Shown: piece after piece, positions 26,934 through 51,710 of the stretch
How the letters are laid out: every line of letters starts with the position of its first letter
Numbering within the stretch: the first letter of the stretch is position 1
NCBI GenBank assembly: GCA_021463485.1
Contig: JAJTYJ010000001.1
Span: 65,378-129,377, forward strand
DNA length: 64,000 nt
Reading direction: 5' to 3'
Origin: a bacterium
GTDB taxonomy: Bacteria; Patescibacteriota; UBA1384; 2-12-FULL-50-11
Notes under the pieces: generated by a model
What the model saw: the letters and a program-made list of their open reading frames with translations, nothing else
Told to the model about the DNA's origin: nothing
Databases searched by the model: none
Translations under genes and position numbers: made by a program

Positions 26934-26940
26934 ACTCCTC

Positions 26941-27270: not shown

Positions 27271-27452
27271 TTACCCTCCAAACTAGTACTATATACCTAG
27301 TTATACTAGGCTTATAAGCCTAGTGTCAAGAGGGAGTTCTATAGATATTGAACACTCGATTCCCTGCCAGTTAAGCGACGATTATCTGGGTACAAAAAGA
27401 CCCCGTCCCCACACAATTGCCGCTTAACTGTCGTGCAATCTCGCTTAGTGGA

Positions 27453-32228: not shown

Positions 32229-32233
32229 TTCTT

Positions 32234-32563
32234 TTATTTACCGAATGCGGTGGTTGCCAACTCCGAGATAGCGTTACTAAGGACAAAAGCCCCGATCGAG
32301 ACCGCTAAGCCGATTCCCGAATAAATAATCGTTCGCTTTGACCGATCCAAGTGCTCCGGATTACCGGAACTGGTGATGTAACCGATCCCTCCCATTACAA
32401 AAAACCCGGCCGCAAGGAGGCCGGCAAACGTCACCAGGATCGTGATAGCGTTCTGAATAAAGTTCTGTACTTTAGCGACATCAGCAGGGGCGGCCATGAC
32501 CGGGGCAACCCATACGAGAGCGAGCAATAACGAAAGACCGAACGTCCGAAGGCGAGTGGACAT
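32234..32563 (-). CDS. VirB2/TrbC-like pilin
   Basis: 109 aa; signal peptide ending AAPA, two hydrophobic helices separated by the short polar loop SSGNPEHLDRSKR. Confidence 0.5.
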   Translation of the reverse strand: MSTRLRTFGLSLLLALVWVAPVMAAPADVAKVQNFIQNAITILVTFAGLLAAGFFVMGGIGYITSSGNPEHLDRSKRTIIYSGIGLAVSIGAFVLSNAISELATTAFGK

Positions 32564-32769
32564 ACATATCCTTTCTCCCCTCCGCAGTTGTAAATTAATA
32601 ATTAATTAACAGTCGAGTATGTTAATTTGCCTACGTAATATCACCTCTGGCATATGCTTGTCAAATATTTAGCTCTGAAAGCACTCTTTACTAGCATATG
32701 TTGTTTGTGGTAAACCTACCGTAAACAAGCACCATTCCGCTATCGGAGGGGTAATACGGAAGCAAGTTT

Positions 32770-35358
32770 ATGAACGTATTTCCCTCAATCACCATCAGCT
32801 TAGAAGCGATCCGTCTGCTTGGGTTGTACGCCCTGGGCGTTATTGGAGTTTGGGTCGTTCTCGCCTGTGTCACCCGGTTAGTCGCGTTCTATCAGCGCTT
32901 AAAGCAAGAGTCGGTTTTGCTGGAAGTTATTCCGCCGACTGATACGGAAGTACCGGCAGTCTCGACCGCCCAATTATTCACTCTTGTTTACGGTTTGTTA
33001 CGCCAGCGATCCTTAGCGGATCGTTTTTTGTTGCGACAGCCGAACTGTTCGCTGGAGATCGTGTCGCACAAAGAAACCGGTATCCGCTACTTATTCCGAG
33101 TACCGAAAGGTTTGGCCGAGCCGATGGAACGGAGCCTCAGAGCCTACCTGCCGGCCCTCAAAGTCAAAGAAGCAGACGAATATCTGCCGGATGAATTGCC
33201 GAAAGGATTAAAAGCAAAGGTCTTGGAGTTTAAGCTCGCTGGACACCCGGCTCTGCCACTGAGCGACCAGACCGACTTAAAGCGTCACGACCCGCTGGTC
33301 TATCTGACCGGCAACATGACACAGCTAAAAGACAATGAGCTATTGGCACTTCAACTTGTTGTTGAGCCGGTCGGAAACTATCGGCAGAACCGCCTCAAGC
33401 GCAAAGCCCTTAAGATCCAACCTTCGGCATTGGCTTCGCAGCGAACAGTTGATCGGGTGGCAAATGTTGTCGAAGCGGTTGTCGGGCTGCTGATGATTCC
33501 GTTCTTAGTTTTGTCAGAATTTGTTACGAGCCAGAAGACAACACTGCCGAGCCGCAAGATTACACCGAACAAGGGCACTCCTGCTCATCAACCACTGGAG
33601 GAACTAACTAATTCCAAGCTCGATCAGCCGCTTTTTGAAACGTCGGTCCGTGCTTTATTGATAGTTGAGAAGAGCCAGCTAAAGACTCGTGAGCGTGGTT
33701 TACTCTCGGCTTTTATGAGTTTCGCGCACCCTATTGGACAGTCGCTAACTAATAAGAAAAACTGGCTCGGCAGAGTCGGTCAAAAGCTGCGCCGCTGGCA
33801 GTTCAAAAGCCGCTTAAATACGCACGGCTTGATACTCTCGGCCTCGGAAGTCGGCGCGCTGTATCACTTCCCGTATACCAAAACGATTCGGACAGAAGAC
33901 TTGATTAAATCCAAAAGTCGCGAGTTGCCAGCGCCGCTTTCGCTCAAAAACAATCGTGAGTTAGATACCGTCTTTGCACTCAATCGCTACGGCAACAGCG
34001 AAACAAACATCGGCTTAACGGATGACGAGCGCTCGCGGCACATGTATCTAATCGGCCAGACCGGTTCCGGTAAATCGACCGCGATCTATCATATAGCGGC
34101 CAGCGACATCGCCAAAGGGCGAGGCTTAGCCGTTATCGATCCGCACGGCGACTTGGCCGAAGACTTACTGGCTACCATTCCGGAATCAAGAATTGACGAT
34201 GTGATTTACTTTAATCCGTTTGATATTGCTCATCCGATCGGCATTAATTTATTAGAACTGCCGCCTAGCCTGACTGACGACGAGCTGGAGCTGGAAAAGG
34301 AATTCGTCTGCGAAAGTATTGTTTCCATTTTTCGTCGCATCTTTAACAAGGACGAGAATACCGATGCCCACCGAATCGAATACATTTTGCGCAACACTAT
34401 TCACACTGCCTTTACGGTTGAAGACGCGACAATCTTCACGGTCTACGAATTGCTGAATAATCCACAGTTTCAAAAGCAGGTTATCGCCCGGTTAAAAGAT
34501 GAGAACCTGCGAAGCTTTTGGAAGAACGAGTTCGGTAAAGCCGGCGACTACCAGATCGTTAAAATGGTCGGCGGTGTAACCGCCAAGATCGGTCGCTTTT
34601 TGTTCTCGCCGATTGCCAAGCGGATTCTGGAGCAACCGAAGTCGACGATCAATTTTGAAGAAATTCTGAATTCTGAGAAGATCCTGATCTGTAACTTGGC
34701 TGAGGGAAGAATCGGCGAAGATACTTCTCAGCTCCTCGGTACGATAGTAATCGCCAAGATTCATCAGGCCGCTCAACGCCGGGCCCGCAAAGCATTATCA
34801 AGTCGGACGCCGTTTTATTTATTCGTCGACGAGTTCCAGAACTTTGCTACCAGCTCGTTTACCAAGCTACTGTCGGGCGGACGAAAGTTCGGCTTAAGAA
34901 TCACGATTGCCGAGCAATCGACGGCTCAGCAATCGGACCGCTCCATCGTCGACGTGATTCTGGCCAATACCGGCGTTGTGGTTTGTTTCCGCACCGCCAG
35001 CCCGGTCGATGAAGAATTGATGCTGGCGCAGTTTGCGCCGCTCGTTAAAACCGGCGATATCGCTAATCTGCCGCGCCATAAGTTCTATATGCGCCTAGCC
35101 GCAATTGAAGCCGAAGATCCGTTCTCCGGCGAAACCATCCCGATTAATAGTCAACGCGACTTGGCAATGATGGAACGGTTGATTAACGCTTCGCGGACGA
35201 ACTACGCCATTCTGTACCAAAAACCGGAACCGCAGGCCGTGACTCCGATTACGAGAAGAGAGCCCACAACAGCTCCCGCCAAGCCCGGGAAGACATTAGG
35301 ATCGCTGAGTAAGAAAAGAGCAGCAGCTGATCCGAATTTGAATCCCGCAACTGGTTAG
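32770..35358 (+). CDS. Type IV secretion coupling protein (VirD4/TraG/TraD family)
   Basis: N-terminal TM helices, YLIGQTGSGKST Walker A, LFVDEFQNF Walker B region, 862 aa. Confidence 0.8.
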   Translation: MNVFPSITISLEAIRLLGLYALGVIGVWVVLACVTRLVAFYQRLKQESVLLEVIPPTDTEVPAVSTAQLFTLVYGLLRQRSLADRFLLRQPNCSLEIVSHKETGIRYLFRVPKGLAEPMERSLRAYLPALKVKEADEYLPDELPKGLKAKVLEFKLAGHPALPLSDQTDLKRHDPLVYLTGNMTQLKDNELLALQLVVEPVGNYRQNRLKRKALKIQPSALASQRTVDRVANVVEAVVGLLMIPFLVLSEFVTSQKTTLPSRKITPNKGTPAHQPLEELTNSKLDQPLFETSVRALLIVEKSQLKTRERGLLSAFMSFAHPIGQSLTNKKNWLGRVGQKLRRWQFKSRLNTHGLILSASEVGALYHFPYTKTIRTEDLIKSKSRELPAPLSLKNNRELDTVFALNRYGNSETNIGLTDDERSRHMYLIGQTGSGKSTAIYHIAASDIAKGRGLAVIDPHGDLAEDLLATIPESRIDDVIYFNPFDIAHPIGINLLELPPSLTDDELELEKEFVCESIVSIFRRIFNKDENTDAHRIEYILRNTIHTAFTVEDATIFTVYELLNNPQFQKQVIARLKDENLRSFWKNEFGKAGDYQIVKMVGGVTAKIGRFLFSPIAKRILEQPKSTINFEEILNSEKILICNLAEGRIGEDTSQLLGTIVIAKIHQAAQRRARKALSSRTPFYLFVDEFQNFATSSFTKLLSGGRKFGLRITIAEQSTAQQSDRSIVDVILANTGVVVCFRTASPVDEELMLAQFAPLVKTGDIANLPRHKFYMRLAAIEAEDPFSGETIPINSQRDLAMMERLINASRTNYAILYQKPEPQAVTPITRREPTTAPAKPGKTLGSLSKKRAAADPNLNPATG

Positions 35359-35410
35359 AGCTGTAAAAAAGTAGAGTCTTTATTAATATATATACTCTCT
35401 TCTTACTTCT

Positions 35411-36151
35411 TTGCTTTCCGCCATGGAACAAACAACATCCCTTCACCTAACCCAACGCCACACCGACATCCTGCTTTTACTGTACCGCTTCCGCTACCTG
35501 ACCCGCCCGCAAATCCAAACACTTCTTAATTACAAAAACCATCGTCAAACCATCGAACTGCTCAACATACTCACGGCACACGATCACGTCAGAAAGTACT
35601 ACGATCGAAAGTCAGCAGTCATACCGGCAGTCTATTCGTTAGGAAAGGCTAGTAGAGCTGTGTTAAAGAAACTGGATATGCCGTCATCGGAGTTAAAACG
35701 TATTAGCTGGGAGAGAAACTATACGCCGGCCTTTCGCGACAGATGCGTTTTCGTTGCTCAGATTTATCTGGATCTGATGAAACAAACGGGAGGGGCGCTT
35801 GGCTTTTGGACCAAAGCCGACCTGAACGGCGTCGAGAACATACTTGCTCCGGCACCGGATGCCTATTTTACTATTGGAGCGAAGCGATATTTCCTGGATG
35901 CCCCACTAACCGTGCCTGGCAAGGCGCTCCGCAATCGAGCTAGAAAGTATGCCGATTACTTTACTGACGGGGAATGGCGGGAAGAGGAAGACAGCGTCTT
36001 CCCAGAGGTGATTATTCTCTGCTCAAATCCGCGCTTAGCCAAAGGTTTGTCGTACTACATTAAAAAAGAATTCTCGGACGAGCCCGATCTCCACTTTCTT
36101 GTGAGTTCTGATCGGTCTCTGGAGAAGCTACTGCCAAAGAAAAAGGCCTGA
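35411..36151 (+). CDS. Replication-relaxation (Replic_Relax)-like winged-helix protein
   Basis: LTQRHTDILLLLYRFRYLTRPQIQTLL N-terminal wHTH pattern typical of the Replic_Relax family on Gram-positive ICEs/plasmids. Confidence 0.4.
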   Translation: MLSAMEQTTSLHLTQRHTDILLLLYRFRYLTRPQIQTLLNYKNHRQTIELLNILTAHDHVRKYYDRKSAVIPAVYSLGKASRAVLKKLDMPSSELKRISWERNYTPAFRDRCVFVAQIYLDLMKQTGGALGFWTKADLNGVENILAPAPDAYFTIGAKRYFLDAPLTVPGKALRNRARKYADYFTDGEWREEEDSVFPEVIILCSNPRLAKGLSYYIKKEFSDEPDLHFLVSSDRSLEKLLPKKKA

Positions 36152-37695: not shown

Positions 37696-38346
37696 TCAAT
37701 CTTTCTTGAACTCTTCCTCGGCTTTTAAGAATTGAGTCGCGACTGAGCCGACTACTGTTCCGATCGTACCGATTCCGATAATCATCAGCATCATGGCAAC
37801 GATCCGTCCGGCTGTAGTGACCGGGTATATATCGCCATATCCGATAGTAGTGACCGTTACCATCGCCCACCAAAAGCTATCGAAAAGATTGTGAATATTT
37901 TGATTAACACCGAATTCGTAACTGTGAAAAGCAACTGCTCCCATGAAAACGAGCGTAAAGACGGTCAGAATAATCGAAAGTAACTGGAACTTCGGACCGT
38001 CTAAATAAAAATCAGCCACCCTGCGCATTCTAGCCATCAAGCGAATAATTCGTAAGACCCTTAACAATCTAAGGCTTCGTAGAACCTGCGTCGTTGTGTT
38101 TGTAATTGGTATGGAGGCCAGGAGTTCGTACCAGCGTTTACGGAAAAATAAAGCCTTGTTTTTAGCCTTCACAAAGCCATAAATAAAGTCGGCCAGAAAA
38201 ATTAGCGCAATTCCTAAATCCAGCCTGCTGATTAACGTGCTCGTCGATGCAGTTACGTCATGATTTATTTCGAAAACCAACAGTCCCGTTGAAAGGATTG
38301 CCAGGATTACTAACCCAAAATCCAAGAAGATCTCGCTCTTTTTCAT
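37696..38346 (-). CDS. Voltage-gated potassium-channel-like ion transport protein
   Basis: TIGYGDIYP selectivity filter (TxGYGD), S4-like RSLRLLRVLRIIRLMARMRR arginine repeat, pore helix and S6. Confidence 0.8.
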   Translation of the reverse strand: MKKSEIFLDFGLVILAILSTGLLVFEINHDVTASTSTLISRLDLGIALIFLADFIYGFVKAKNKALFFRKRWYELLASIPITNTTTQVLRSLRLLRVLRIIRLMARMRRVADFYLDGPKFQLLSIILTVFTLVFMGAVAFHSYEFGVNQNIHNLFDSFWWAMVTVTTIGYGDIYPVTTAGRIVAMMLMIIGIGTIGTVVGSVATQFLKAEEEFKKD

Positions 38347-39236
38347 TAAATTAGTTTATCAATGAGTGCTATTGCCCCATGTGCAGCGATGTTACCTGCG
38401 GCATTAATCAGTATCTCTCTTGTGGCTTTGAGTAGCTTCCCTATCTTTGAACTTTTTGGATCTGTCTTCACAGTCTTTTCTAGCTCCTGAAGATTCGAGT
38501 CTAGTTCACGCTTTTTATTTTCCGGGAGCTCTATATCGGGCGCAAACTTTCTTATTTGTTCTACTAGGCCCAAGACCTTTTCCGCTGAAATATTGGCGAC
38601 GAATGTTGAGTTAGTGTTTGTAGCATTACCGATCGTGCCAGAAAAATTCTCAATATTATTAATTGTGTATTGTACTTGCGGGGAGCTAGCCTTCTCCTTA
38701 TCTTCTTCAGTAAAATCTAAGTCGTGGCCGACAATCCCCATGTCCTCAAGTTTTAAACTCCAGCTAAGCACAGCGTTCCTGACACCATCAATAATCCCTT
38801 TAAGCTCACTATGTTGTGTAAAGAAATTTATTTCCGTTTCAAAATCAATTGCTTTCGCGATTGTGTTTCGTGCTTCCGGTCCCAAAGGAAGGTAATACGA
38901 GCCATCAACCTTTCCCTCTTTTACTAAATTCTCAACTTCTCCAATCGGCTGAATTACACCCTTTTTTGATACGAGTTCATGGACCTTCTTGTCTTCAATT
39001 ATTATAGTCTGCCACCCTCGAACAGGATTAAGCGCCCTTAACTGCCCGGAAACTATTCGATAAGCCGGTAAATCTTTCTCGGTGGAATCGTAGCCATTTA
39101 ACTCACTCTCGATCCAGGCAAGCATATCATCAAGCTTCAGCTTACTGGCGATGACTTTTGCTTTGAGAAGTAAATTAGTTACCGAAACAGTTGGGGTTAG
39201 TACGTCTCGTTGTAATTCTTTTACTATTGCGCCCAT
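38346..39236 (-). CDS. Hypothetical protein, possibly AbiTii-like abortive-infection N-terminal domain
   Basis: 296 aa; N-terminal LLLKAKVIASKLKLDDMLAWIESELNGY resembles the AbiTii family signature as recalled from memory (not checked against a database); stop overlaps the K-channel start (ATGA). Confidence 0.35.
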   Translation of the reverse strand: MGAIVKELQRDVLTPTVSVTNLLLKAKVIASKLKLDDMLAWIESELNGYDSTEKDLPAYRIVSGQLRALNPVRGWQTIIIEDKKVHELVSKKGVIQPIGEVENLVKEGKVDGSYYLPLGPEARNTIAKAIDFETEINFFTQHSELKGIIDGVRNAVLSWSLKLEDMGIVGHDLDFTEEDKEKASSPQVQYTINNIENFSGTIGNATNTNSTFVANISAEKVLGLVEQIRKFAPDIELPENKKRELDSNLQELEKTVKTDPKSSKIGKLLKATREILINAAGNIAAHGAIALIDKLI

Positions 39237-39247
39237 TCGATCTCTTT

Positions 39248-40378
39248 TTAGCTCGAGAAAATATCGACGTACTTTTTGTAGATATACGTTCGATCATAGG
39301 TTTCGTTTTCATCTTTCGGCTGGAGAATACCAAGCGCAATGAAGCGATCAATAACTTTCTGCGCTCCTGCCCGAGTGTAGCCAGTCCAGTCCATAATGAT
39401 TTTGGTCGAAACGATTGGCTGCGCATAGAGTTTACGTAGTACCAAGACACCGCTTTCCGACTCGCGCTTAGCGAGTGCCTGAATTTTAAGCATATCGTCT
39501 TCGCGAAGTTTAGTAATTTCTTTAGAAATCCGAATGGATTCGTTGGCTGTTTCCATGACACCCTCAAGGAAAAAGTCGAGCCAGCTCCACACCTCTCCGT
39601 CATGGTAGCCGTTAAGCCTATTGTAATAGAGTTTTTGGTGTTTTTTGAAAAACGTCGACAAGAAAAGCACCGGCCGCTCAAGTAGGCCGTGATGGCAGAG
39701 TAGCATCGTAATCAGCAGGCGTCCTGTCCGACCATTACCGTCGAGGAATGGGTGGATAGTTTCAAACTGAGCGTGCATTAAGGCTGCATGAATGAGAGGT
39801 AGGGTTTGATTCTCAACATGAAGAAAAGTTTCGAATTCGCTGAGCGATCGCTCCATTTCCAAAATCGGTGGTGGGACAAAGAAAGCGTTGGCCGGAGAAG
39901 TCCCACCAATCCAGTTTTGAGTCTTACGAAACTCACCTGGATCAGCAAAGTGGGTAGCTCGCGCCCCGGTCATCAGCTCTTTGTGAATTTCTTTAATCAG
40001 CCGTAACGACATCGGAAAATTCTTTAGTCGTTCGGTTCCATACTCCAACGCTTTGATGTAGTACAAAATATCACCAGCGTCAGTCTCTTGAGTCGCCACA
40101 CCGCCTTCCTTCTCAATTGCATCAACAATGGTTGCCTTTGTTCCCTCAATCTGTGAAGAAGAAGTGGCATCCTTTAAGACAAACATTTTCAAGAAAAAGT
40201 CGACATCTGGCAAAGTGTGGGTGATGCCATCGAGTTTTCCTACCAAACGGCCAGCCTCCGCGGTTTTTATCTGAATTTCTGAGGGCAAATCAAAGATACC
40301 TTCCGGCGGAAAAGCATTCGGAACGAAAGCTTCGTAGCCTTGCGACTGAAGGATGTTCTTTCCAATTTCGATATTCAT
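39248..40378 (-). CDS. Fic family protein (AMPylase/phosphocholine transferase fold) with C-terminal wHTH
   Basis: IHPFLDGNGRTGRLL matches the canonical Fic motif HPFx[DE]GNGR. Confidence 0.85.
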   Translation of the reverse strand: MNIEIGKNILQSQGYEAFVPNAFPPEGIFDLPSEIQIKTAEAGRLVGKLDGITHTLPDVDFFLKMFVLKDATSSSQIEGTKATIVDAIEKEGGVATQETDAGDILYYIKALEYGTERLKNFPMSLRLIKEIHKELMTGARATHFADPGEFRKTQNWIGGTSPANAFFVPPPILEMERSLSEFETFLHVENQTLPLIHAALMHAQFETIHPFLDGNGRTGRLLITMLLCHHGLLERPVLFLSTFFKKHQKLYYNRLNGYHDGEVWSWLDFFLEGVMETANESIRISKEITKLREDDMLKIQALAKRESESGVLVLRKLYAQPIVSTKIIMDWTGYTRAGAQKVIDRFIALGILQPKDENETYDRTYIYKKYVDIFSS

Positions 40379-40497: not shown

Positions 40498-41145
40498 CTA
40501 CGGAACGTAGTATAGAGAGCTTGAGCCTTTGGCAGTATTCAAATCTTCGAGCGAGAAAGCTATCTTTCCGATTTTTCCGTTGGCTTCGGTAATAACCTGA
40601 ATCATTTTAAACGGTTTGATCTCGTCGATATTCTGCCAATACGTCACCGTTCGGCCTTGGATTCCGGGGTTTCCTTCGGGTGTTGCCTTGGGCTTACTGA
40701 ATCCGGTAATTGCCCAGGCGGTAGTCTCGTCAAGCGGGTTAGCCGAAAAAGAATACCCGGCGTAGATCGGCTTGTTATTGGCAACGCTGAAATCAACTTG
40801 AACATTCGCCTGATTCAAATCAAAGCCGGTAATTTTTACTTTCTTGGACGGCGTTAAACTTCCTTGGCTAAAGTCTTTAGCAATAGCCGCGTAATCCGCT
40901 CTGATCTGCGTTTCGGTTTTGCCGAACAGCTCAACAGCCGAAACCGTTTGAACGCTCTGTGGAGTCGGAGCGGTTTGATTAACTGCGGCAGTAGAAAAAT
41001 CCTCAGTCGGAGCTTGAGTATCGCCACCGGCAAACAAGCCGATCAATATAAAGAACCCGACAATAGCGAGAGCAGTAAATAATATTTTCTTGCCTTTCGA
41101 CATCAGCGCTTTATTTGTGTTTATCAATATAGGTCCTCTAGCCAT
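40498..41145 (-). CDS. Hypothetical membrane-anchored protein
   Basis: N-terminal TM; 215 aa. Confidence 0.4.
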   Translation of the reverse strand: MARGPILINTNKALMSKGKKILFTALAIVGFFILIGLFAGGDTQAPTEDFSTAAVNQTAPTPQSVQTVSAVELFGKTETQIRADYAAIAKDFSQGSLTPSKKVKITGFDLNQANVQVDFSVANNKPIYAGYSFSANPLDETTAWAITGFSKPKATPEGNPGIQGRTVTYWQNIDEIKPFKMIQVITEANGKIGKIAFSLEDLNTAKGSSSLYYVP

Positions 41146-41280: not shown

Positions 41281-43548
41281 ATGGAGCGGCTTGAATCCTC
41301 ACATTTTGGCGACCCTATTACTGCCGAGCTCTCGGAAGCACAACCGCTGGAACTGCCTGAAGAAGCGTTCGCTGAAACCGCGGTAGCCCAGCCGGAACAG
41401 CAACCCGAGCTGCCGACGGAACACCAATCCCCCGAACAAGCCTACCAAATGCTCCGCCGGGGCGGCGGTGACAAGGAAATTCTGGCTCGTTTCGAGCCGG
41501 ACCAGCAGAAGGATATCGAAGATAAGCAGAAAATTCTTTCATCGCTTGCCTATTTTATCGGCAAAGACTTCAAAATCCCGGTCAAACTGAACGAACCCGG
41601 CGCCGGATGGCACTGGGATTTCAAAGACAACATTATCAGGGTCGATCCGAAAGACCTGCTGGAAAAACCCATGGATTACCTGCGTTTCGTCATCTCGCAC
41701 GAAGGCGGCCATCGACGGATTTCCCGAACCGAGTTCATTCCGATGGACGTTTGGGCTCAACCAGGCTTCTCGATCATGATGAACTCGATCGAAGATCCGC
41801 GAATCAACAACTTCGTCGCCGAAAACTATCCGAAGTTCCGCGAGCAAATGCAGATGGCTTACCAGATGGAACTTGATCTCGAGAAAACAATGAAGGAGAA
41901 AGCGACCGAAGAACTCGGCCACCAACCGCGCTTCATTCAGGCAAGTTTTGAATACATCAAGCAGTGGCTGAAAGAGCAGAACGGGGGCTTCGGTGAAGTC
42001 AGCGAAGATCTGCCGGACGAGGTGAAAGAAGTCATCGCCAAAACGTTGCCTTCGGCTCAAGATTCCTGGTGGCGTTACCCCTCACGAAAAGAAGCCGACA
42101 GCAGCGAGAAAACTATCAGCAAGTACGCCCAAACGTCGTACGAGATAAATCGCGACGAAGTTTGGCCGGAATTCAAAAAACTCGTCGATCAGGACATTGA
42201 AGACGAGAAAATGGAACAGAAGATGCGGGACATGCAAAAGCAATCCGGCGAAGGCGGCGAGGGTGGAGAGCCCGGAGAAGGACAGCCGGACTTGCCGCAG
42301 GAACTCAAAGATCGGATGACGCCGGAGCAGCAACAGGAACTCCGAGACGCGCTTCAGCAAGCGATGGACAAAGCCCGCGAGCAGCAAGAGCAGCAACGGA
42401 GCCAGCAAACTGAAGGTGGAGCCCAAGAGAACGAACAGCAGGAACAAACGACTGCACCCGTCGATTTGGATTCGCTCAGCGAAGAAACCAAGCAAGCCGT
42501 TCGCGATTACATCGAAAGTCTGCCCGAAGAAGTCAAAGAAGAATTGGCCGAACGGGCTCGTCAGGCGCTTAAAGAATTCGAAGAAGCGGTCAACGAGGAA
42601 CTTCGCGGCAAACTAGTGCAAGAACCCGGCGAAGAAACCAAAGATAAAGCCAGAGGCGAGACACGGCGTTCCGACCGAACCGGTCGGGATGTTCCACCGG
42701 AGTACAAAGAGGAAATCGAAAGATATAAGGAATTGGTCGAGGGAACGCTCGAAAAAGACGCCAATGTTTACGAAGAAAAGCGCCGGGAAGTGTTGGAGAC
42801 GATCAACAAACTCGAAGATGACCTGCGGGCGATTTTCGTCGAGCGTCGGGCTCACATGTGGGAGGGCGGTCATCGCTCCGGCAAGCACATCGACATCAAA
42901 CGAAGAATCCAGGAAAAAGCCAAAGACATACCGGCCATGGAAAGCCGAGCTTGGGAACGTAGAGAAATGCCGCAAGAAAAAGATTACGCTTTTAGCCTGC
43001 TGGTCGACCTGTCCGGCTCAATGACGAGCGGCAACAAAATCGGCGAAACCTTCAAGGGCGCGATCGTTTTGTCGGAAGTGCTCAATCGCCTTTCGATCGA
43101 CAACGAGATTCTCGGCTTCAACGACCGTCTTCATGTTTTGAAGAGCTACGAAGAAGCGATGTCCGACGAAATCCGCGAGCGGATGGGCGGCATGCTCTCC
43201 GAAGTCAACTCGCCTCGAGCCCGCTACAACGACGACGGTTGGGCGCTCGAACAAGCTTCCGAGCGACTGGCCAAACAAAAAGCGGCGGAAAAGTTCTTGA
43301 TCCCGATGTCCGACGGTCAGCCGGAAGAGTCGCCGCAACACTCGAAAAAAGAGTGGGATCTGGAAAACGTCGTCGCCAAGATTCAAGAAGAGACCGATCA
43401 GAAGCTAATCGCTCTCGGTATTGGTCGCGGAACCGAACACGTCGCCCATTACTACCCCAACAGCCTGGCGAACGTCGACGTTAACGAAATGGCTGACAAA
43501 TTAGCCGACTTACTCAGGGAAGCGATTGAAAGATATGACCAGTTCTGA
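41281..43548 (+). CDS. vWA-domain protein with N-terminal HExxH zincin-like domain and E/Q-rich linker
   Basis: VISHEGGHRRISR (HExxH); C-terminal DLSGSMTSG MIDAS motif (DxSxS). Confidence 0.7.
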   Translation: MERLESSHFGDPITAELSEAQPLELPEEAFAETAVAQPEQQPELPTEHQSPEQAYQMLRRGGGDKEILARFEPDQQKDIEDKQKILSSLAYFIGKDFKIPVKLNEPGAGWHWDFKDNIIRVDPKDLLEKPMDYLRFVISHEGGHRRISRTEFIPMDVWAQPGFSIMMNSIEDPRINNFVAENYPKFREQMQMAYQMELDLEKTMKEKATEELGHQPRFIQASFEYIKQWLKEQNGGFGEVSEDLPDEVKEVIAKTLPSAQDSWWRYPSRKEADSSEKTISKYAQTSYEINRDEVWPEFKKLVDQDIEDEKMEQKMRDMQKQSGEGGEGGEPGEGQPDLPQELKDRMTPEQQQELRDALQQAMDKAREQQEQQRSQQTEGGAQENEQQEQTTAPVDLDSLSEETKQAVRDYIESLPEEVKEELAERARQALKEFEEAVNEELRGKLVQEPGEETKDKARGETRRSDRTGRDVPPEYKEEIERYKELVEGTLEKDANVYEEKRREVLETINKLEDDLRAIFVERRAHMWEGGHRSGKHIDIKRRIQEKAKDIPAMESRAWERREMPQEKDYAFSLLVDLSGSMTSGNKIGETFKGAIVLSEVLNRLSIDNEILGFNDRLHVLKSYEEAMSDEIRERMGGMLSEVNSPRARYNDDGWALEQASERLAKQKAAEKFLIPMSDGQPEESPQHSKKEWDLENVVAKIQEETDQKLIALGIGRGTEHVAHYYPNSLANVDVNEMADKLADLLREAIERYDQF

Positions 43549-43990
43549 CTTAATTAAAGATATGGCAATTGATGAGCAATCCTTTAACGAATTCATTGAG
43601 ATCTCCGGTTTTTCCAAGGAAGTGCCGCTGATCATTGCCGAAGACGAAGACGAGCTTCATCAATATCGCGCCCAGCTGCAAAAGGCCGGTTATGAAGAAC
43701 AAGAATCGGTTTATCACCTCGTTCAGGCTTCCCACAAAGGTTCGAAGAATTACCTGGTACTCGACGGTCACCATCCGTTCACTTTAAAGCAGGCCTACGA
43801 CTTCGTTGTTCAGTACCCGACCGGCCAAATTGAAGTTTCCGACCAGGTGACGATGCAGAAAGCGATTTTCTCGCCCAATTATAAAGAAAACCGAACCGTT
43901 CTGTTGGTAACCAAGCGAGAGCTGGCCGAAATCCAGAAAACCGGTTTAACGTTCTTGTCCCGAGTCGGGGCAACCTATCAACATGCCTGA
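43526..43990 (+). CDS. Hypothetical protein (possible vWA-MoxR-associated protein; DGHH motif)
   Basis: 154 aa ORF overlapping both neighbours (operon-coupled); contains YLVLDGHHPFTL. Confidence 0.4.
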   Translation: MKDMTSSDLIKDMAIDEQSFNEFIEISGFSKEVPLIIAEDEDELHQYRAQLQKAGYEEQESVYHLVQASHKGSKNYLVLDGHHPFTLKQAYDFVVQYPTGQIEVSDQVTMQKAIFSPNYKENRTVLLVTKRELAEIQKTGLTFLSRVGATYQHA

Positions 43991-46082
43991 ACCAGGATCA
44001 CCGGAACACCAGCCAGACATGGAGGCGGAGGCGCAAGCCGAAGTCGTCGCTCCCGACGTTGAAACCGAACAACCGGCCGGCCCGATCGCCGAAACGGAGA
44101 ACAGCGTTTCCTATCTCGGCGTGGAGCTGAAAAAAGCCGAAGCGGAAAAGAGCCAATTCGTGCCGGATCGAGAACACTATAAAGATTACATTAACGACCA
44201 ATTCTCGCTCGAGCTTCAGCAGAAGCTGGCCGTCAGTTTTCTCCAAGGCGAGCCGATGCTCTTGGAAGGCGGCACCAGTATCGGTAAGACGACGACCGTT
44301 CGAAAGATGGCTTCCGAACTCAATTGGGAAGTCCACTACGTCAACTTAAACGGCGCCAGCGACGTTGAAGACTTGATGGGCCGTTACATCCCCAACCCTC
44401 ACCGCCAGATGATCGGGGATCCCGAATACATCTTCGCCGACGGCAAAGTCACGTCCGGCTTGCGCCTGGAAGAGGGCAAGCAGAAAGTCGTCATTCTTGA
44501 TGAGCTGAACGCCGCCCCGCCGAACATTTTAATTCGTCTCCACGAAGTACTCGACGCCTTGGAGCGGGGCACTGAAGTGGTCTTGTCGGAAGACGCGTCC
44601 GAGGCCGTCAGGGTTAATCGCGAGCAGACCAAAGTCGTCGGACTGATGAACCCGCCGGGCAAAGGTTATTTTGCTCGTGAACCGCTCGACCCGGCTCAGC
44701 TTCGTCGCTGGAACTATCAGAAAGAGGCCTCGACACTGCCTGACGAGACGTTCGCGCACGCTACCGACGTTCTCTTCGGCTTGGCTACGGAAATGGATCC
44801 TAACGCCGTACCGCAAGAATCCTATTTAACGACTCGCGATCAGCGGCTAATGCCCGAGCAGTTGGCCGAGATCCCCGGCATTCAAGAAGTGCTCGGCAAA
44901 TACAAAGAATTTCATAAAGCGGCCAAAGAAATGGTCAATAATCGCACGGTTGCCGCCGATCAGCCGCAGCGCTTTACCTACGACGATCGCATGGAGCCGA
45001 GAAGGGTCAAAGAATTCGTTCAACAGTTCTACAACGGCGACATTAATGAAACTTTCCAAAAAGCTCTTCAGTATTACTACTCGAATAAAGTTGAGAGCAA
45101 ACAAGATAAACAAAAACTCGACGAGCTGATCAAACACGTCGCCTACGTACCGCAAGAGGCGACGCAACGTCGCGGTGCCGAACGTGAAGCGCCCGACGGT
45201 GCGGCAGCAACCGCCGCGCCGGACACCCGTATTCCGGAAACAATTACGCCGCTCTCTGGAGAGCTGCTTGAACAAGTCACGGAGGCGCAGAGAATTCTCG
45301 GTGCCGAAAACGTTGTCTCGCCGGACAAAGTTCGGGAAATCCTGGGCCTTAAGATTGATCTTGAGAAAGTTCCGGCCATTCCGTTCTCCAAAGAAGAACT
45401 CGAGCGAGCCAAGGAACTCGGCCAGTTTCTCGTTTATCGCCACGACAGAGATGATCGTGCACGCCACTTGACGATGGAACGACTTCAGGAACTCCTGCAA
45501 CCGAAGTTCGATAAAGAAGACGACGGCAAAGTTCTCTACGATACCAGTTGGTACAAGAACGAAGACTTCTTCACGAAAGAAGCGATGCGTTCAGGCTGGG
45601 CGTTGACCAGCCGAGAAGTCATTCCGGATTCGACCAGCAAGAACTATCTCCAGCAGACTGGTGAAATAGCGACCTATCTCGGCACGAAAGTCATGAAAGA
45701 AATCGCCGATCCGAAATTACGCGCTGAATACGGCGAAGCGATCAAAGAATACGAAGTTAAACGAGTAGCAATTGAGAAAATTATTGACTCAGACTGGAAA
45801 GAAGCCGCCAAACAATTGGAAGAACTGAAGCTTAATAAGCTCTTCCGCCAAACGCTGGTCGAAGCGATGTACGATACCGCCATGTACCTCGAGAACCGAC
45901 CGAAAAGCGAACGAGACGACGCTCGTTTGTTGGAAGACATGTACGGCTGGACCAATCGGCGTTCGTCCGATGGCCACCTGGTGTATGCCGGTGCATTCCA
46001 CGCCTACGGCCTGCACGTGGACGACGATCGCCCGGGCCGCGCGCCTTCCGATGTCGGTGTCGTCCTCTCCCGCAATCGCTAG
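43983..46082 (+). CDS. MoxR/AAA_5-type AAA+ ATPase with C-terminal lectin-like DGR target domain
   Basis: GGTSIGKTT Walker A, VVILDELN Walker B, MNPP sensor; C-terminal 40 aa encoded by the DGR variable repeat. Confidence 0.75.
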   Translation: MPEPGSPEHQPDMEAEAQAEVVAPDVETEQPAGPIAETENSVSYLGVELKKAEAEKSQFVPDREHYKDYINDQFSLELQQKLAVSFLQGEPMLLEGGTSIGKTTTVRKMASELNWEVHYVNLNGASDVEDLMGRYIPNPHRQMIGDPEYIFADGKVTSGLRLEEGKQKVVILDELNAAPPNILIRLHEVLDALERGTEVVLSEDASEAVRVNREQTKVVGLMNPPGKGYFAREPLDPAQLRRWNYQKEASTLPDETFAHATDVLFGLATEMDPNAVPQESYLTTRDQRLMPEQLAEIPGIQEVLGKYKEFHKAAKEMVNNRTVAADQPQRFTYDDRMEPRRVKEFVQQFYNGDINETFQKALQYYYSNKVESKQDKQKLDELIKHVAYVPQEATQRRGAEREAPDGAAATAAPDTRIPETITPLSGELLEQVTEAQRILGAENVVSPDKVREILGLKIDLEKVPAIPFSKEELERAKELGQFLVYRHDRDDRARHLTMERLQELLQPKFDKEDDGKVLYDTSWYKNEDFFTKEAMRSGWALTSREVIPDSTSKNYLQQTGEIATYLGTKVMKEIADPKLRAEYGEAIKEYEVKRVAIEKIIDSDWKEAAKQLEELKLNKLFRQTLVEAMYDTAMYLENRPKSERDDARLLEDMYGWTNRRSSDGHLVYAGAFHAYGLHVDDDRPGRAPSDVGVVLSRNR
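45959..46079 (+). repeat. DGR variable repeat (VR) at the 3' end of the target gene
   Basis: About 120 nt that align with the template repeat at 46376-46497; nearly all mismatches lie where the template repeat has A. Confidence 0.8.
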
Positions 46083-46375: not shown

Positions 46376-46497
46376 GCGTTCGTCCAATGGCAACCTGGTG
46401 TATGCCGGTGAATTCAACGCCAACGGCCTGAACGTGGACAACGATAACCCGGACAACACGAATTCCGATATCGGTGTCGTCTTCTCCCGAAATCTCA
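46376..46497 (+). repeat. DGR template repeat (TR)
   Basis: Intergenic A-rich copy of the VR; encodes NPDNTNSDIGVV, a lectin-type consensus; lies between the target gene and avd/RT. Confidence 0.8.
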
Positions 46498-46553: not shown

Positions 46554-46934
46554 TTAATTATTAGCGTTTAAGCTCTGAACGGATTTAATCCAACCGCCGA
46601 GCATTCGACCGATTTCCTGCAAAATTTCTTGTAAGTGGATATAAGCTTTCCGGTCGACAGCGCGAAGATCGTAAGCCAACCGAATGAAGACCTTAACCGT
46701 TTCGAGCTGAAGACTGGCGTTCTTGAGGTGATTCTCTTTGTCGCTGCCGGAAGTTTCACAAGCGGCGAGCAGGCATTTGAGTAGGTCCAGAGTTTCGTCC
46801 TGAAGGGTTTGGCCGGTCGCATAGCGTTCAATCTTGGGAAAACGCTGAACTTGTAGGTGCAGAAGTCTGTAAAAATCATAAGTTTTCTGGGTAATCGGCA
46901 CGCCGCCCAGCAATTGTTGAGAAAGAATTTCCAT
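46554..46934 (-). CDS. avd: DGR accessory variability determinant (Avd; four-helix-bundle family)
   Basis: About 127 aa from Met 46934; FPKIERYATGQTL...LQEILQEIGRMLGGWIKS matches the Avd/23S-IVS four-helix-bundle pattern. Confidence 0.65.
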   Translation of the reverse strand: MEILSQQLLGGVPITQKTYDFYRLLHLQVQRFPKIERYATGQTLQDETLDLLKCLLAACETSGSDKENHLKNASLQLETVKVFIRLAYDLRAVDRKAYIHLQEILQEIGRMLGGWIKSVQSLNANN

Positions 46935-46995
46935 TAAGAAACTATTACTACACGAAGGAAGCTTTGACCAGGTTGTCTCAGTCGACAACCTCTTT

Positions 46996-47964
46996 TTGGC
47001 GTGGAAAAATTACCGCCGAGGCAAGCGGAAGAAAGAGGACATTCAGCTTTTCGAGTATCGCTTAGAAGACAACGTCTTCGCTTTGCACCGGGATTTAATT
47101 GACGGAACCTATAGCCCCGGCAGTTACCAGCAGTTCCGTATCACTGATCCGAAGTTGCGTCTGATCAGTAAGGCCAGCGTCAGGGACCGACTCGTTCACC
47201 AGGCGATCTACCAGATTCTTTACCCCCTGTACGACATGACCTTTATTTCCGATTCGTACGCCTGTCGGAAAGACATGGGAACGCATCGAGCGTTTCGCGA
47301 ACTGGTCGACCACGCTCGCCGAGTCAGCAAAAACTACACGGCTCCTTGTTGGGCTATTAAGATGGATATTAAAAAGTTCTTTGACAGTGTTAACCACGAA
47401 ATTCTCAAGAAAATATTAAGAGAACGAATCGGCGACCATCGACTGTTACAGTTGCTCGATCAAATCATCGACAGTTTCGATGTCACGCCCGGGAACGGCA
47501 TGCCGCTCGGCAATCTGACTAGCCAATTGTTCGCCAACGTCTACATGGATCCGTTAGATAAGTTCGTCAAACATAAGCTCAACGCGTCGCACTATCTGCG
47601 ATACGCCGACGATTTTCTATTGCTAGGGCAAAATCCGGAAGAGCTGATCGGCTACTTCGTGGAAATTACCCGATTCTTACGTGAACGGCTGGACTTAAAC
47701 GTTCACCCGACTAAATCGACGCTTCGGAAACTCAATTGGGGAATCGATTTCGTCGGCTACGTCGCCCGGCCGCATCACAGCGTTCCGCGAGCGCGAACCG
47801 TTCGTCGGATTGATCGAATTTTAACAAGGCACATGAGGGACGATCCGGATAAGATTAAATACAGCGTCCCGTCGTATATCGGTTACCTTTGCCACGTGCG
47901 CAGCCAAAAGCTGATTAAACATTTGGTCGGTATCGCTGCGGCTGCTGACAAGGGTGGTACTTAA
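46996..47964 (+). CDS. DGR reverse transcriptase
   Basis: RYADDFLLLG (YxDD box), PLGNLTSQLFANVYM ([IL]GxxxSQ DGR hallmark), 322 aa. Confidence 0.9.
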   Translation: MAWKNYRRGKRKKEDIQLFEYRLEDNVFALHRDLIDGTYSPGSYQQFRITDPKLRLISKASVRDRLVHQAIYQILYPLYDMTFISDSYACRKDMGTHRAFRELVDHARRVSKNYTAPCWAIKMDIKKFFDSVNHEILKKILRERIGDHRLLQLLDQIIDSFDVTPGNGMPLGNLTSQLFANVYMDPLDKFVKHKLNASHYLRYADDFLLLGQNPEELIGYFVEITRFLRERLDLNVHPTKSTLRKLNWGIDFVGYVARPHHSVPRARTVRRIDRILTRHMRDDPDKIKYSVPSYIGYLCHVRSQKLIKHLVGIAAAADKGGT

Positions 47965-51305: not shown

Positions 51306-51376
51306 GCGGGAGTGGTTCAATGGTAGAACTCCTGCCTTCCAAGCAGGTGACGCGGGTTCGATTCCCGTCTCCCGCT
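51306..51376 (+). tRNA. tRNA-Trp (anticodon CCA)
   Basis: GCGGGAGTGGTTCAATGGTAGAAC..CTGCC-TTCCAAG-GCAGG..GCGGGTTCGATTCCCGT.CTCCCGCT. Confidence 0.8.
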
Positions 51377-51437
51377 CAATGATTATTGCTACAAAAGAGG
51401 GAACCGAGCGCTAGCTCGTATTCCCGTCTCCCGCTCA

Positions 51438-51710
51438 ATGAAAAAGTATTGGTTTGTGCGCAAAACCTACGGCTGGGGTTGGACGCCTGGCTCCTGGCAA
51501 GGCTGGGCAATTATGGGTGTGTACTTTGGTGGGGTTGCAAATATTGTCTTGAAAGCCGATCAATCAAACGAATCGACAGAATACATAACGAACAACTTAC
51601 TCATTCCAATTACTGTTTTAACGATCGCTCTATTAATTATTACGTATCTAACTGGCGAGAAGCCGAAATGGCAGTGGGGAAAAGAGAAAAATGAAAAACA
51701 AAAACATTGA
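51438..51710 (+). CDS. Hypothetical small membrane protein
   Basis: 90 aa, 2 TM; its start lies within a repeat of the tRNA-Trp 3' end. Confidence 0.35.
   Translation: MKKYWFVRKTYGWGWTPGSWQGWAIMGVYFGGVANIVLKADQSNESTEYITNNLLIPITVLTIALLIITYLTGEKPKWQWGKEKNEKQKH

What the first reader, a model, noticed from the sequence alone, without database searches (positions are those of the whole stretch)
41281..46082. vWA(HExxH)-small protein-MoxR AAA+ three-gene conflict-type system whose ATPase tail is DGR-diversified
Three overlapping, translationally coupled genes. First, a 755-aa protein with an N-terminal HEGGH zincin-like motif, an E/Q-rich low-complexity linker and a C-terminal vWA MIDAS motif (DLSGSM). 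Second, a 154-aa protein. Third, a MoxR/AAA_5 ATPase (GGTSIGKTT / VILDELN) with a long C-terminal extension ending in the DGR variable lectin-like tail. This matches the architecture of the described NTP-dependent vWA-MoxR ternary 'diversifying' conflict systems (established knowledge: vWA-MoxR-VMAP systems coupled to DGRs). Here it sits on a conjugative island of a reduced-genome bacterium, and the diversified module is fused directly to the ATPase. This is a strong candidate for an invader- or host-surface-recognition system.
Basis: partly seen in the sequence, partly recalled or inferred. Interest (0 to 1): 0.85.

Follow-up and report, generated by a model that had tools for sequence, protein, structure and literature searches.

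The report
Hypervariable ATPase–vWA–protease cassette of CPR bacteria
A three-gene operon (metalloprotease-vWA protein, small orphan protein, MoxR-type ATPase) whose ATPase carries a retroelement-mutagenised lectin tail is real and conserved across Patescibacteria; the hypervariable ATPase itself was already known, and the operon is not one of the described VMAP systems.

Summary

The order vWA, small protein, ATPase recurs in 50-63 of 65 species-level Patescibacteria loci, and about 70% have a DGR next door. Contigs from two sibling samples break inside the VR, which hints at ongoing diversification.

This is not a VMAP ternary system: gene order, VMAP-C domain, MoxR N-terminal motifs and placement of the lectin on the vWA protein all fail. 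The ATPase and vWA domains resemble CobS/midasin and CobT/midasin-MIDAS. All three proteins lack signal peptides and membrane segments, so surface recognition is unlikely. An AAA-ATPase-CLec fusion is already reported as the commonest DGR target in CPR bacteria.

What may be new is the obligate zincin-vWA partner and the 135-aa orphan protein. I read it as a mobile, cytoplasmic, hypervariable sensor/AAA+/protease conflict module.

The parts
41281..43548 (+). Gene 1, 755 aa: N-terminal gluzincin-like domain, about 250-aa charged linker, C-terminal CobT-type vWA/MIDAS domain
   Evidence: ORF. Pfam CobT_C 3.6e-15. PDB CobT 1.5e-8 and midasin MIDAS 1.8e-3. Linker aa 301-560 is 27% D+E, 17% K+R, 10% Q. 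40-60% identical orthologues lie upstream of the ATPase in 63 of 65 loci.
41428..42240 (+). Zincin-like domain (aa 50-320). HExxH is at aa 140-144 (41698-41712). The candidate third ligand E171 lies in the invariant IEDPR (41788-41802).
42975..43545 (+). vWA domain with MIDAS motif DLSGS (aa 576-580, 43006-43020)
   Evidence: Pfam CobT_C aa 622-745 and VWA aa 573-719. The DxSxS motif is conserved in 68 homologues.
43565..43990 (+). Gene 2, small orphan protein: 141 aa from ATG 43565; alternative starts at 43535 and 43526. Conserved core is YDFxVQYPTGQ.
   Evidence: No hit in Pfam, NCBIfam, PHROGs, PADLOC or PDB, either for the single sequence or for 63 members/the family profile. The family has 188 clusters at 50% identity among 1.84 billion representatives; all 150 listed hits are short stand-alone proteins (68-157 aa, mostly 129-146; shorter ones fragments) with no fusion among them. 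It always lies between the vWA and ATPase genes.
43983..46082 (+). Gene 3, 699 aa: AAA_5 (MoxR-clade, CobS/midasin-like) ATPase with a conserved helical middle region and a C-terminal CLec-fold domain
   Evidence: AAA_5 aa 92-242. PDB midasin 9e-27, CobS 8e-4. 412 full-length homologues, nearly all Patescibacteria; JGI names several 'MoxR-like ATPase'. Walker A aa 96-104, Walker B aa 171-176, DPAQLRRW aa 236.
45255..46079 (+). C-type-lectin/FGE-type ligand-binding domain (aa 425-699)
45959..46077 (+). Variable repeat (VR), the last 40 codons of the ATPase
   Evidence: Contigs from two sibling samples, otherwise 100% identical, end inside it at 45975 and 46003.
46376..46494 (+). Template repeat (TR)
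   Evidence: 85% identical to the VR. 17 of its 30 adenines differ in the VR. 19 variable codons (7 AAC, 3 AAT) give a theoretical repertoire of about 1e17. No other VR is present in the window.
46554..46988 (-). DGR accessory protein Avd
   Evidence: Pfam bAvd 1.7e-18. NCBIfam DivGenRetAVD 84.5 bits, cut-off 80. phrog_3206.
46996..47964 (+). DGR reverse transcriptase
   Evidence: RVT_1 1.5e-25. phrog_1423 8e-105. The LGNLTSQ and YADD motifs are visible in the translation.

Best explanation
This is a self-contained, horizontally mobile cassette typical of Patescibacteria (CPR). It combines a DGR (TR, Avd, RT) with a three-protein cytoplasmic machine.

Shown:
- The ATPase is a MoxR-clade AAA_5 protein of CobS/midasin type.
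- Its C-terminal C-type-lectin-fold domain is rewritten by the DGR at about 19 codons.
- The partner protein joins a gluzincin-like HExxH domain, through a long charged linker, to a CobT/midasin-type MIDAS vWA domain.
- A 135-141-aa orphan protein always sits between the two genes.
- The three proteins co-occur and co-vary across CPR classes.

Inferred:
- The ATPase forms a ring that displays hypervariable lectin domains. These bind a changing intracellular ligand, most plausibly a protein of a phage or other invading element.
- The MIDAS domain docks on the ATPase, as in CobS-CobT, RavA-ViaA and midasin.
- ATP-driven remodelling then either hands the bound ligand to the tethered metallopeptidase or unleashes it.
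- The small protein acts as an adaptor or brake.

It works like the MoxR-vWA 'thresholded, diversifying' conflict systems, but it is built differently and is not a member of them.
For: Anatomy:
- ORFs and domains.
- VR/TR adenine bias, 17 of 18 mismatches.
- CLec fold.
- Gluzincin-like fold around an invariant HExxH...E.
- Cytoplasmic: no TM segment or signal peptide.

Conservation:
- 78 species-level loci, almost all labelled CPR.
- Tight vWA-mid-ATPase order in 50 of 65 loci with enough upstream flank, plus 13 more in which the vWA gene is present but the cassette is interrupted, differently arranged, or lacks a detected mid homologue.
- Avd/RT present in 35 of 51 loci with enough downstream flank; an A-biased VR lies at the ATPase 3' end in about 38 loci.
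- Pairwise-identity correlations between components: r = 0.71-0.82.

Activity hint: identical contigs from two sibling samples break inside the VR.

Mobility and conflict context:
- In the window an ICE-like T4SS module, AbiTii and Fic lie upstream.
- The same T4SS/Replic_Relax context occurs in L082; HsdR and a serine recombinase flank the cassette in L080.
- Serine recombinases (5) and HEPN_LA2681 (4) are the commonest neighbours among 135 flanking ORFs.
- The cassette has higher GC than its flanks.

Modular recognition: several C-terminal CLec subtypes exist on the same ATPase core, and a few relatives have non-VR tails.

Literature: MoxR-vWA couples act as chaperone/threshold devices in conflict systems (PMC7159879). 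The CPR AAA-CLec target has been proposed as a signal transducer (PMC10907252).
Against: - No experiment or structure links the three proteins physically. The ligand is unknown.
- The fold and role of the small protein remain unknown.
- Sequence conservation is unusually high for a conflict system. Median pairwise identity is 56-60% for vWA and ATPase across deeply divergent classes, unlike the fast-evolving vWA/VMAP components described by Kaur et al.
- Neighbourhoods are heterogeneous and often housekeeping.
- About 30% of loci have no DGR within the flank, and some relatives lack a VR-like tail. The core machine therefore does not depend on hypervariation.
- No PADLOC defence model matches the three proteins convincingly.
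Confidence: 0.5

Rival explanations
1. It is a bona fide vWA-MoxR-VMAP ternary conflict system (Kaur et al. 2020) coupled to a DGR.
For: It shares the themes of a MoxR-clade ATPase, a vWA protein, a third protein, a peptidase domain and a DGR-diversified FGS/CLec domain (PMC7159879).
Against: - Gene order is vWA, small protein, ATPase rather than the strict VMAP, MoxR, vWA order.
- No VMAP-family hit in the window protein or in any of 63 orthologues at E <= 1. The protein is about 135 aa, whereas VMAP is tripartite.
- There is no tryptophan at all in the 90 residues before the AAA+ domain, so the WxhapG/PsWRxa motifs are absent.
- The vWA domain is C-terminal with the effector N-terminal, and the CLec domain sits on the ATPase instead of the vWA protein.
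- The ATPase matches AAA_5/midasin/CobS.
- The lineage is CPR, not multicellular bacteria.
Confidence: 0.04
2. It is a non-conflict remodelling or assembly chaperone of the midasin, CobST or RavA-ViaA type. The variable lectin adapts it to changing client proteins or imported host-derived molecules, in line with the symbiotic lifestyle of CPR cells. The zincin domain is a processing protease or is inactive.
For: - The best sequence matches are midasin AAA and MIDAS domains and CobS/CobT.
- The layout of charged linker plus MIDAS mirrors midasin (layout of midasin, BchD and CobT from general knowledge).
- Conservation is high across CPR classes.
- Some loci sit in housekeeping surroundings.
- Some relatives lack a DGR or a VR-like tail.
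Against: - A DGR is next door in about 70% of loci, with a repertoire of about 1e17. That argues for an unpredictable, fast-changing ligand.
- The cassette recurs on ICE-like or recombinase-flanked islands beside Abi, Fic, HEPN and R-M genes.
- The strictly conserved HExxH...E argues for an active protease.
Confidence: 0.25
3. It is a host-cell or surface recognition system: an adhesin-like module or an effector delivered by the T4SS, with the variable lectin binding host-surface or host-cytoplasmic targets.
For: - CPR DGR targets have been proposed to serve attachment to hosts (abstract of Paul et al. 2017, recalled from memory and not read here; see also the review PMC10221324).
- The cassette lies next to a T4SS module in the window and in L082.
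Against: - There is no signal peptide or TM segment in any of the three proteins; maximum Kyte-Doolittle (19-residue window) is below 0.9.
- AAA+ ATPases need cytoplasmic ATP.
- Many loci lack any T4SS neighbour.
Confidence: 0.08
4. It is an aerobic cobaltochelatase CobS/CobT pair involved in cobalamin synthesis.
For: The Pfam CobT_C hit, PHROG CobT/'porphyrin biosynthesis' hits and weak PDB CobS and CobT matches. JGI names some vWA homologues 'cobalamin biosynthesis protein CobT'.
Against: - TIGR01650 CobS scores 20 bits against a cut-off of 558.
- There is no hit to any Pfam CobT N-terminal model.
- No CobN or other cobalamin gene is among the neighbours.
- The HExxH domain and the hypervariable lectin make no sense for a chelatase.
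Confidence: 0.01

Closest known systems
CPR DGR variable proteins of the 'AAA ATPase + CLec' architecture (Paul et al. 2017 Nat Microbiol, as summarised in Dore et al. 2024, PMC10907252)
   Same: Same lineage and the same target architecture: an AAA_5 ATPase with a C-terminal CLec-fold VR. The DGR layout also matches: TR between target and avd, divergent avd, then RT. The window gene is a member of this group.
   Different: In the literature I could search, nothing describes the obligate upstream zincin-vWA partner or the 135-aa protein, the CobS/midasin affinity, or the non-DGR relatives of the core. Paul et al. 2017 itself is not held in the library, so I could not check whether it mentions these neighbours.
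vWA-MoxR-VMAP ternary conflict systems with DGR-diversified FGS domains (Kaur, Burroughs, Iyer, Aravind 2020, PMC7159879)
   Same: A MoxR-clade ATPase plus a vWA co-chaperone plus a third protein. Peptidase domains are present. A DGR-diversified CLec/FGS domain acts as the variable recognition element. All components are cytoplasmic.
   Different: Gene order differs, there is no VMAP-C domain and no MoxR N-terminal W-motifs. The lectin is on the ATPase rather than the vWA protein. The peptidase is a zincin N-terminal to the vWA domain, not a trypsin or caspase on VMAP. The host lineage is CPR rather than multicellular bacteria. The components are slowly evolving.
CobS-CobT (aerobic cobaltochelatase motor) and midasin/Rea1 (AAA_5 ring, D/E-rich linker, MIDAS)
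   Same: These are the best sequence matches for both the AAA+ and vWA domains. A charged linker precedes the MIDAS domain. The expected logic is a MIDAS domain docking on an AAA+ ring to remodel a bound client (the mechanism is from general knowledge of these families).
   Different: There is one AAA module per chain, fused to a hypervariable lectin. The vWA protein carries a metallopeptidase domain. There is no CobN partner, and the CobS equivalog score is far below cut-off.
Treponema denticola TvpA and other DGR variable proteins (Mtd, TaqVP) with the FGE-type CLec fold
   Same: The fold of the C-terminal domain and the placement of the VR in its last strands.
   Different: TvpA and Mtd are surface or virion ligand-binding proteins. 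Here the domain is the tail of a cytoplasmic ATPase.
Minigluzincins and M48 peptidases (selecase, projannalysin, ZMPSTE24, BepA)
   Same: A three-stranded sheet, an HExxH helix and a following Glu helix. These are the best structural matches of the N-terminal domain.
   Different: No detectable sequence similarity. Extra helical elaborations are present. The domain is fused to a linker and a vWA domain.

Membership tests
Diversity-generating retroelement (DGR) cassette | TR/VR pair whose mismatches fall almost only at TR adenines | tested here: met
   18 mismatches in 119 nt, 17 of them at TR adenines; 16 of those lie in codon positions 1 or 2.
Diversity-generating retroelement (DGR) cassette | DGR-type reverse transcriptase and Avd accessory protein adjacent to the TR | tested here: met
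   RVT_1 1.5e-25; phrog_1423 8e-105; the SQ and YADD motifs are in the translation. Avd: DivGenRetAVD 84.5 bits, above the cut-off of 80.
Diversity-generating retroelement (DGR) cassette | VR lies at the C-terminus of a C-type-lectin-fold domain | tested here: met
Diversity-generating retroelement (DGR) cassette | Ongoing adenine-specific diversification in the population | tested here: inconclusive
   Only indirect evidence: two otherwise identical contigs from sibling samples end inside the VR at or next to variable positions. No reads were available for mapping.
CPR 'AAA ATPase-CLec' DGR target class (Paul et al. 2017) | AAA ATPase domain fused to a C-terminal CLec VR domain, encoded in a CPR genome next to a DGR | tested here: met
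   AAA_5 plus CLec fold plus VR. Homologues and loci are labelled Patescibacteria. The class definition is taken from PMC10907252.
VMAP ternary system (Kaur et al. 2020) | Strict gene order VMAP, MoxR, vWA | tested here: not met
   The order here, and in 50 or more relatives, is vWA, small protein, ATPase. Definition.
VMAP ternary system (Kaur et al. 2020) | Third protein carries the VMAP-C domain (tripartite VMAP) | tested here: not met
   No Pfam hit at E <= 0.01 for the window protein and none of VMAP type in 63 orthologues at E <= 1. The protein is only 133-142 aa. That the Pfam copy contains VMAP models rests on my own knowledge.
VMAP ternary system (Kaur et al. 2020) | MoxR with N-terminal WxhapG and PsWRxa motifs | tested here: not met
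   No tryptophan occurs in residues 1-90 of the ATPase (translation; alignment).
VMAP ternary system (Kaur et al. 2020) | Effector/FGS domains fused C-terminal to the vWA domain | tested here: not met
   The vWA domain is the C-terminal end of its protein, the zincin domain is N-terminal, and the CLec domain is on the ATPase.
MoxR-clade AAA+ ATPase with vWA co-chaperone (sensu Iyer 2004, Snider and Houry 2006) | AAA_5/COG0714-type AAA+ domain with intact Walker A/B, plus an adjacent vWA-MIDAS partner gene | tested here: met
   AAA_5 53.5 bits against a cut-off of 22. GGTSIGKTT, ILDELN and DPAQLRRW are conserved. JGI annotates homologues as 'MoxR-like ATPase'. The vWA gene is in the same operon. 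There was no hit to AAA_3 (MoxR proper) at E <= 0.01.
MoxR-clade AAA+ ATPase with vWA co-chaperone | Helix-2 insert characteristic of the clade | not tested
CobS/CobT cobaltochelatase | CobS equivalog score, CobT N-terminal domain, CobN partner | tested here: not met
   TIGR01650 scores 20.1 bits against a cut-off of 558.55. Only the CobT_C vWA domain matches; the N-terminal region has no Pfam hit. No CobN is among the neighbours.
Gluzincin metallopeptidase | HExxH on a helix preceded by a small sheet, with a third-ligand Glu on the next helix | tested here: met
Gluzincin metallopeptidase | Zinc binding and peptidase activity | not testable with these tools
   This needs biochemistry.

The most novel reading that the evidence does not exclude
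The conserved core is a previously undescribed class of cytoplasmic machine, widespread in CPR bacteria: a MoxR/CobS-type ATPase ring, a 135-aa orphan protein and a MIDAS-vWA protein carrying a gluzincin. In this reading it is a programmable protease or remodeller whose substrate receptor is rewritten by a DGR. That would amount to an innate, antibody-like intracellular recognition system in ultra-small symbiotic bacteria, mechanistically parallel to midasin.
Probability: 0.3. Interest if true: 0.8.

Novelty: new variant of a known kind. Interest (0 to 1): 0.5.

Why it matters
DGRs are strikingly enriched in CPR bacteria, and their commonest target, an AAA ATPase with a lectin tail, has had no functional context. 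Here it is shown always to come with a MIDAS-vWA protein bearing a conserved metallopeptidase domain and with an orphan adaptor. All three are cytoplasmic and often carried on mobile islands. That turns 'uncharacterised target' into a concrete, testable model: a hypervariable sensor coupled to an AAA+ motor and a protease. It also corrects a tempting mis-assignment to the VMAP ternary systems. If the model holds, it would extend the idea of DGR-diversified intracellular antigen sensors from multicellular bacteria to the smallest known cells.

Tried and rejected
- Sequence searches of the small protein found nothing. I tried the single sequence and a 63-member set or profile against Pfam, NCBIfam, PHROGs, PADLOC and PDB.
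- A word-based homologue search for the small protein found only 5 relatives. The exhaustive profile search found 188 clusters; all 150 listed hits are short stand-alone proteins.
- I could not model the small protein.
- Pfam and PDB profile searches of the HExxH domain gave only noise.
- The phage database has no match to the HExxH domain and only distant AAA matches. IMG/VR holds just 3 relatives. A phage origin was therefore dropped.
- The AFDB fold library was unavailable.
- The hairpin downstream of the VR is no more stable than shuffled sequence, and promoter/terminator scans were at or below chance.
- ICE boundaries could not be defined from direct repeats.
- Paul et al. 2017 (PMC5436926) is not held. 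Six further literature searches found no description of the vWA or small-protein partners.
- The cobaltochelatase reading was rejected on the equivalog score and the genomic context.

Full report
**Observation**

The three ORFs exist as described: 41281-43548 (755 aa), 43526-43990 (154 aa from the first TTG) and 43983-46082 (699 aa).
- Pfam places a CobT-type vWA domain at the C-terminus of the first protein (CobT_C 3.6e-15).
- Pfam places an AAA_5 domain at aa 92-242 of the third (3.4e-14).
- The middle protein has no hit.

Downstream lie a bAvd gene on the minus strand and an RT gene. A 119-nt direct repeat links the 3' end of the ATPase gene (45959-46077) to an intergenic copy (46376-46494). 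Of the 18 mismatches, 17 are at adenines of the intergenic copy, and 16 of those fall in codon positions 1 or 2. This is a textbook DGR whose VR is the last 40 codons of the ATPase.
- The TR has 19 variable codons (7 AAC, 3 AAT), for a theoretical repertoire of about 1e17.
- The window holds no second VR.

One correction concerns the middle gene. Its orthologues are 133-142 aa and start 10-20 nt after the vWA stop. The true start is therefore probably ATG 43565, or 43535 as the public gene call has it. The 8-nt overlap with the ATPase start is real.

1. The ATPase scores as AAA_5. JGI annotates its homologues as 'MoxR-like ATPase'.
   - the Lcl C-terminal domain, 7.6; Mtd, 6.9; TaqVP, 5.9.
   The lectin-like fold is confirmed.
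3. In 68 orthologues the HExxH motif is at least 95% conserved, and E171 in IEDPR is invariant. A model of aa 50-320 (pLDDT 91) shows three short strands, a helix carrying HExxH and a next helix carrying E171.
   - Foldseek puts selecase and jannalysin first, with probability up to 0.99 but E about 0.06.
   - I take the zincin fold as supported with moderate strength.
   - Sequence profiles find nothing, so this is a divergent peptidase family.
4. The operon is not an assembly artefact. The same contig is found in public data, and the cassette recurs widely, as described next.

**Distribution and synteny**

The ATPase has 412 detectable homologues. Most are full length, about 690 aa, 50-57% identical and from Patescibacteria. 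They share a C-terminal scaffold, W-T..R.S.G.LV..G.F...G......P.....LGV.FSR, with variable positions in between.

A scan of one genome per species returned 78 loci, nearly all labelled as CPR classes.
- Of 65 loci with enough upstream sequence, 50 have the tight order vWA, small protein, ATPase.
- In 13 more the vWA gene is present but the cassette is interrupted, differently arranged, or lacks a detected mid homologue. In six of these (L011, L017, L050, L054, L070, L076) an insertion of about 1-2 kb sits between the vWA and small-protein genes, and in at least four of them it holds a second VR.
- Of 51 loci with enough downstream sequence, 35 have Avd/RT.
- About 38 loci show an adenine-biased VR at the ATPase 3' end.

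Median pairwise identities are 56% (vWA), 33% (small protein) and 60% (ATPase aa 1-420). Pairwise identities correlate between components, r 0.71-0.82.

The same ATPase core carries several different lectin-tail subtypes. A few relatives without a neighbouring DGR have tails that are not VR-like. The core machine is therefore older than, or independent of, its hypervariable tail.

The small-protein family has only 188 clusters among 1.84 billion representatives, and all 150 listed hits are short stand-alone proteins (68-157 aa, mostly 129-146; shorter ones fragments) with no fusion among them.

**Hint of activity**

The exact small protein occurs on contigs from three sibling samples. Two of these contigs are 100% identical to the window over 5.9 kb and stop inside the VR, at window positions 45975 and 46003, which are at or next to variable sites. 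Shared exact runs between VR and TR are short. Population heterogeneity of the VR is therefore the likeliest cause, but only read mapping can show it.

**Context**

Upstream in the window lies an ICE-like module:
- a serine recombinase overlapping tRNA-Pro;
- an M23 peptidase;
- a VirB4/TraG-like ATPase;
- PrgI and a T4SS pilin/TrbL protein;
- a coupling protein;
- a Replic_Relax protein.

AbiTii and Fic genes follow. A relative at 55% identity sits behind the same coupling-protein/Replic_Relax/DUF3768 block. Another lies between a type I restriction subunit and a serine recombinase. A third is among housekeeping genes.

Among 135 flanking ORFs from about 37 loci, serine recombinases (5) and HEPN_LA2681 (4) are the most frequent families, and the rest are heterogeneous. 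The cassette has higher GC (0.52-0.53) than its flanks. Only three relatives occur in IMG/VR, and there are no close ones in phage genomes. I read this as a mobile cellular module, often ICE cargo, and not a phage gene set.

**What it is not**

Kaur et al. (PMC7159879) define VMAP ternary systems by four features:
- the strict order VMAP, MoxR, vWA;
- a VMAP-C domain;
- effector/FGS domains C-terminal to the vWA domain.

All four fail here.

It is not a cobaltochelatase either. The CobS equivalog scores 20 bits against a cut-off of 558, and there is no CobT N-terminal domain and no CobN.

It is unlikely to be a surface system. No protein has a signal peptide or membrane segment.

**What it resembles**

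The best solved relatives are midasin AAA modules (9e-27) and CobS for the ATPase. For the vWA domain they are CobT (1.5e-8) and the midasin MIDAS domain. The 250-residue charged linker before the MIDAS domain echoes midasin, BchD and CobT (layout of those proteins from general knowledge).

**Proposed mechanism**

Everything in this section is inference. The ATPase ring displays DGR-diversified lectin domains that capture a changing intracellular ligand. The MIDAS domain docks on the ring. ATP hydrolysis either presents the ligand to the tethered gluzincin or releases and activates it. The small protein, which co-varies most with the ATPase, acts as adaptor or brake.

The likeliest biological role is conflict with phages or other mobile DNA, in line with the proposal of Dore et al. 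that such ATPases transduce signals sensed by the variable domain (PMC10907252). A chaperone-type role for variable clients is a serious rival. The reasons are the high conservation, the DGR-less relatives and the frequently housekeeping neighbourhoods.

**Novelty**

The AAA-ATPase-CLec fusion is reported as the commonest DGR target architecture in CPR bacteria (PMC10907252 citing Paul et al. 2017). Roux et al. still list CPR targets as uncharacterised.

I found no description of the zincin-vWA partner, the orphan protein or the CobS/midasin affinity in the searchable literature. I could not read Paul et al. 2017.

I therefore rate this a new variant of a known kind, of moderate interest. It offers a clear, testable mechanistic model for an abundant but unexplained class of DGR targets.

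Noticed in passing
window 45975 and 46003; loci L087 and L088: Contigs from two sibling samples (SRR17318676, SRR17318679) are 100% identical to the window over 5.9 kb and terminate inside the VR, at or next to variable adenine positions. This pattern is expected if the VR is heterogeneous in those populations.
   Followed up: partly
L017 7316-7439; L050 6246-6361; L070 7346-7471; L076 6554-6680: In several relatives an extra insert of about 1.1-2 kb between the vWA and small-protein genes carries a second VR that matches the same TR. A second DGR target has been inserted into the operon.
   Followed up: partly
L004 11075-11198; L024/L027 10961-11079; L026 11050-11165; L030 11151-11266; L040 11017-11137; L054 ORF 7965-10781: Many relatives have a second DGR target between the ATPase and the TR; where gene calls were checked (L082, same contig as L004) it is a ~330-aa protein with no Pfam hit. 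In L054 a 938-aa ATPase ORF contains two VRs in tandem.
   Followed up: no
L031, L048, L049, L066, L072 (ATPase C-termini): Some relatives of the vWA/small-protein/ATPase core have no DGR within the flank, and their C-terminal tails do not look like a VR scaffold. L048 has a 1159-aa ATPase. The core machine exists without hypervariation.
   Followed up: partly
window 25329-36151: An ICE-like module: a serine recombinase whose ORF end overlaps tRNA-Pro (25332-25407), an M23 peptidase, a VirB4/TraG-like ATPase, PrgI, a T4SS pilin/TrbL protein, a coupling protein and a Replic_Relax protein. The right-hand boundary of the island was not found.
   Followed up: partly
window 38346-40378 (-): AbiTii (3.7e-41) and Fic/DOC genes lie directly upstream of the cassette. 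A 215-aa protein with one TM segment and no family hit lies at 40498-41145 and has no counterpart in any related locus.
   Followed up: no
window 51361-51382 and 51420-51441: There is an exact 22-nt duplication of the 3' end of tRNA-Gly (51306-51377), 59 nt downstream. It may be an attachment-site scar.
   Followed up: no
neighbours of the cassette in about 37 related loci (alignment A8): HEPN_LA2681 domains (4 of 135 ORFs) and large serine recombinases (5 of 135) are the most recurrent flanking families. Two flanking ORFs match Mg-chelatase ChlI/YifB-type ATPases.
   Followed up: no
window 42001-46000: The cassette has higher GC (0.52-0.53, against 0.43-0.47 in the flanks) and a strong positive AT skew (0.21-0.29). 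This reflects the E/K/Q-rich coding strand and is consistent with horizontal acquisition.
   Followed up: no
L033 (labelled Micrarchaeota), L041 (labelled Anaerolineaceae), several loci labelled 'uncultured Gammaproteobacteria': A few related loci carry non-CPR organism labels. Given 50-60% identity to CPR sequences, these are probably binning or labelling errors, though real transfer was not excluded.
   Followed up: no
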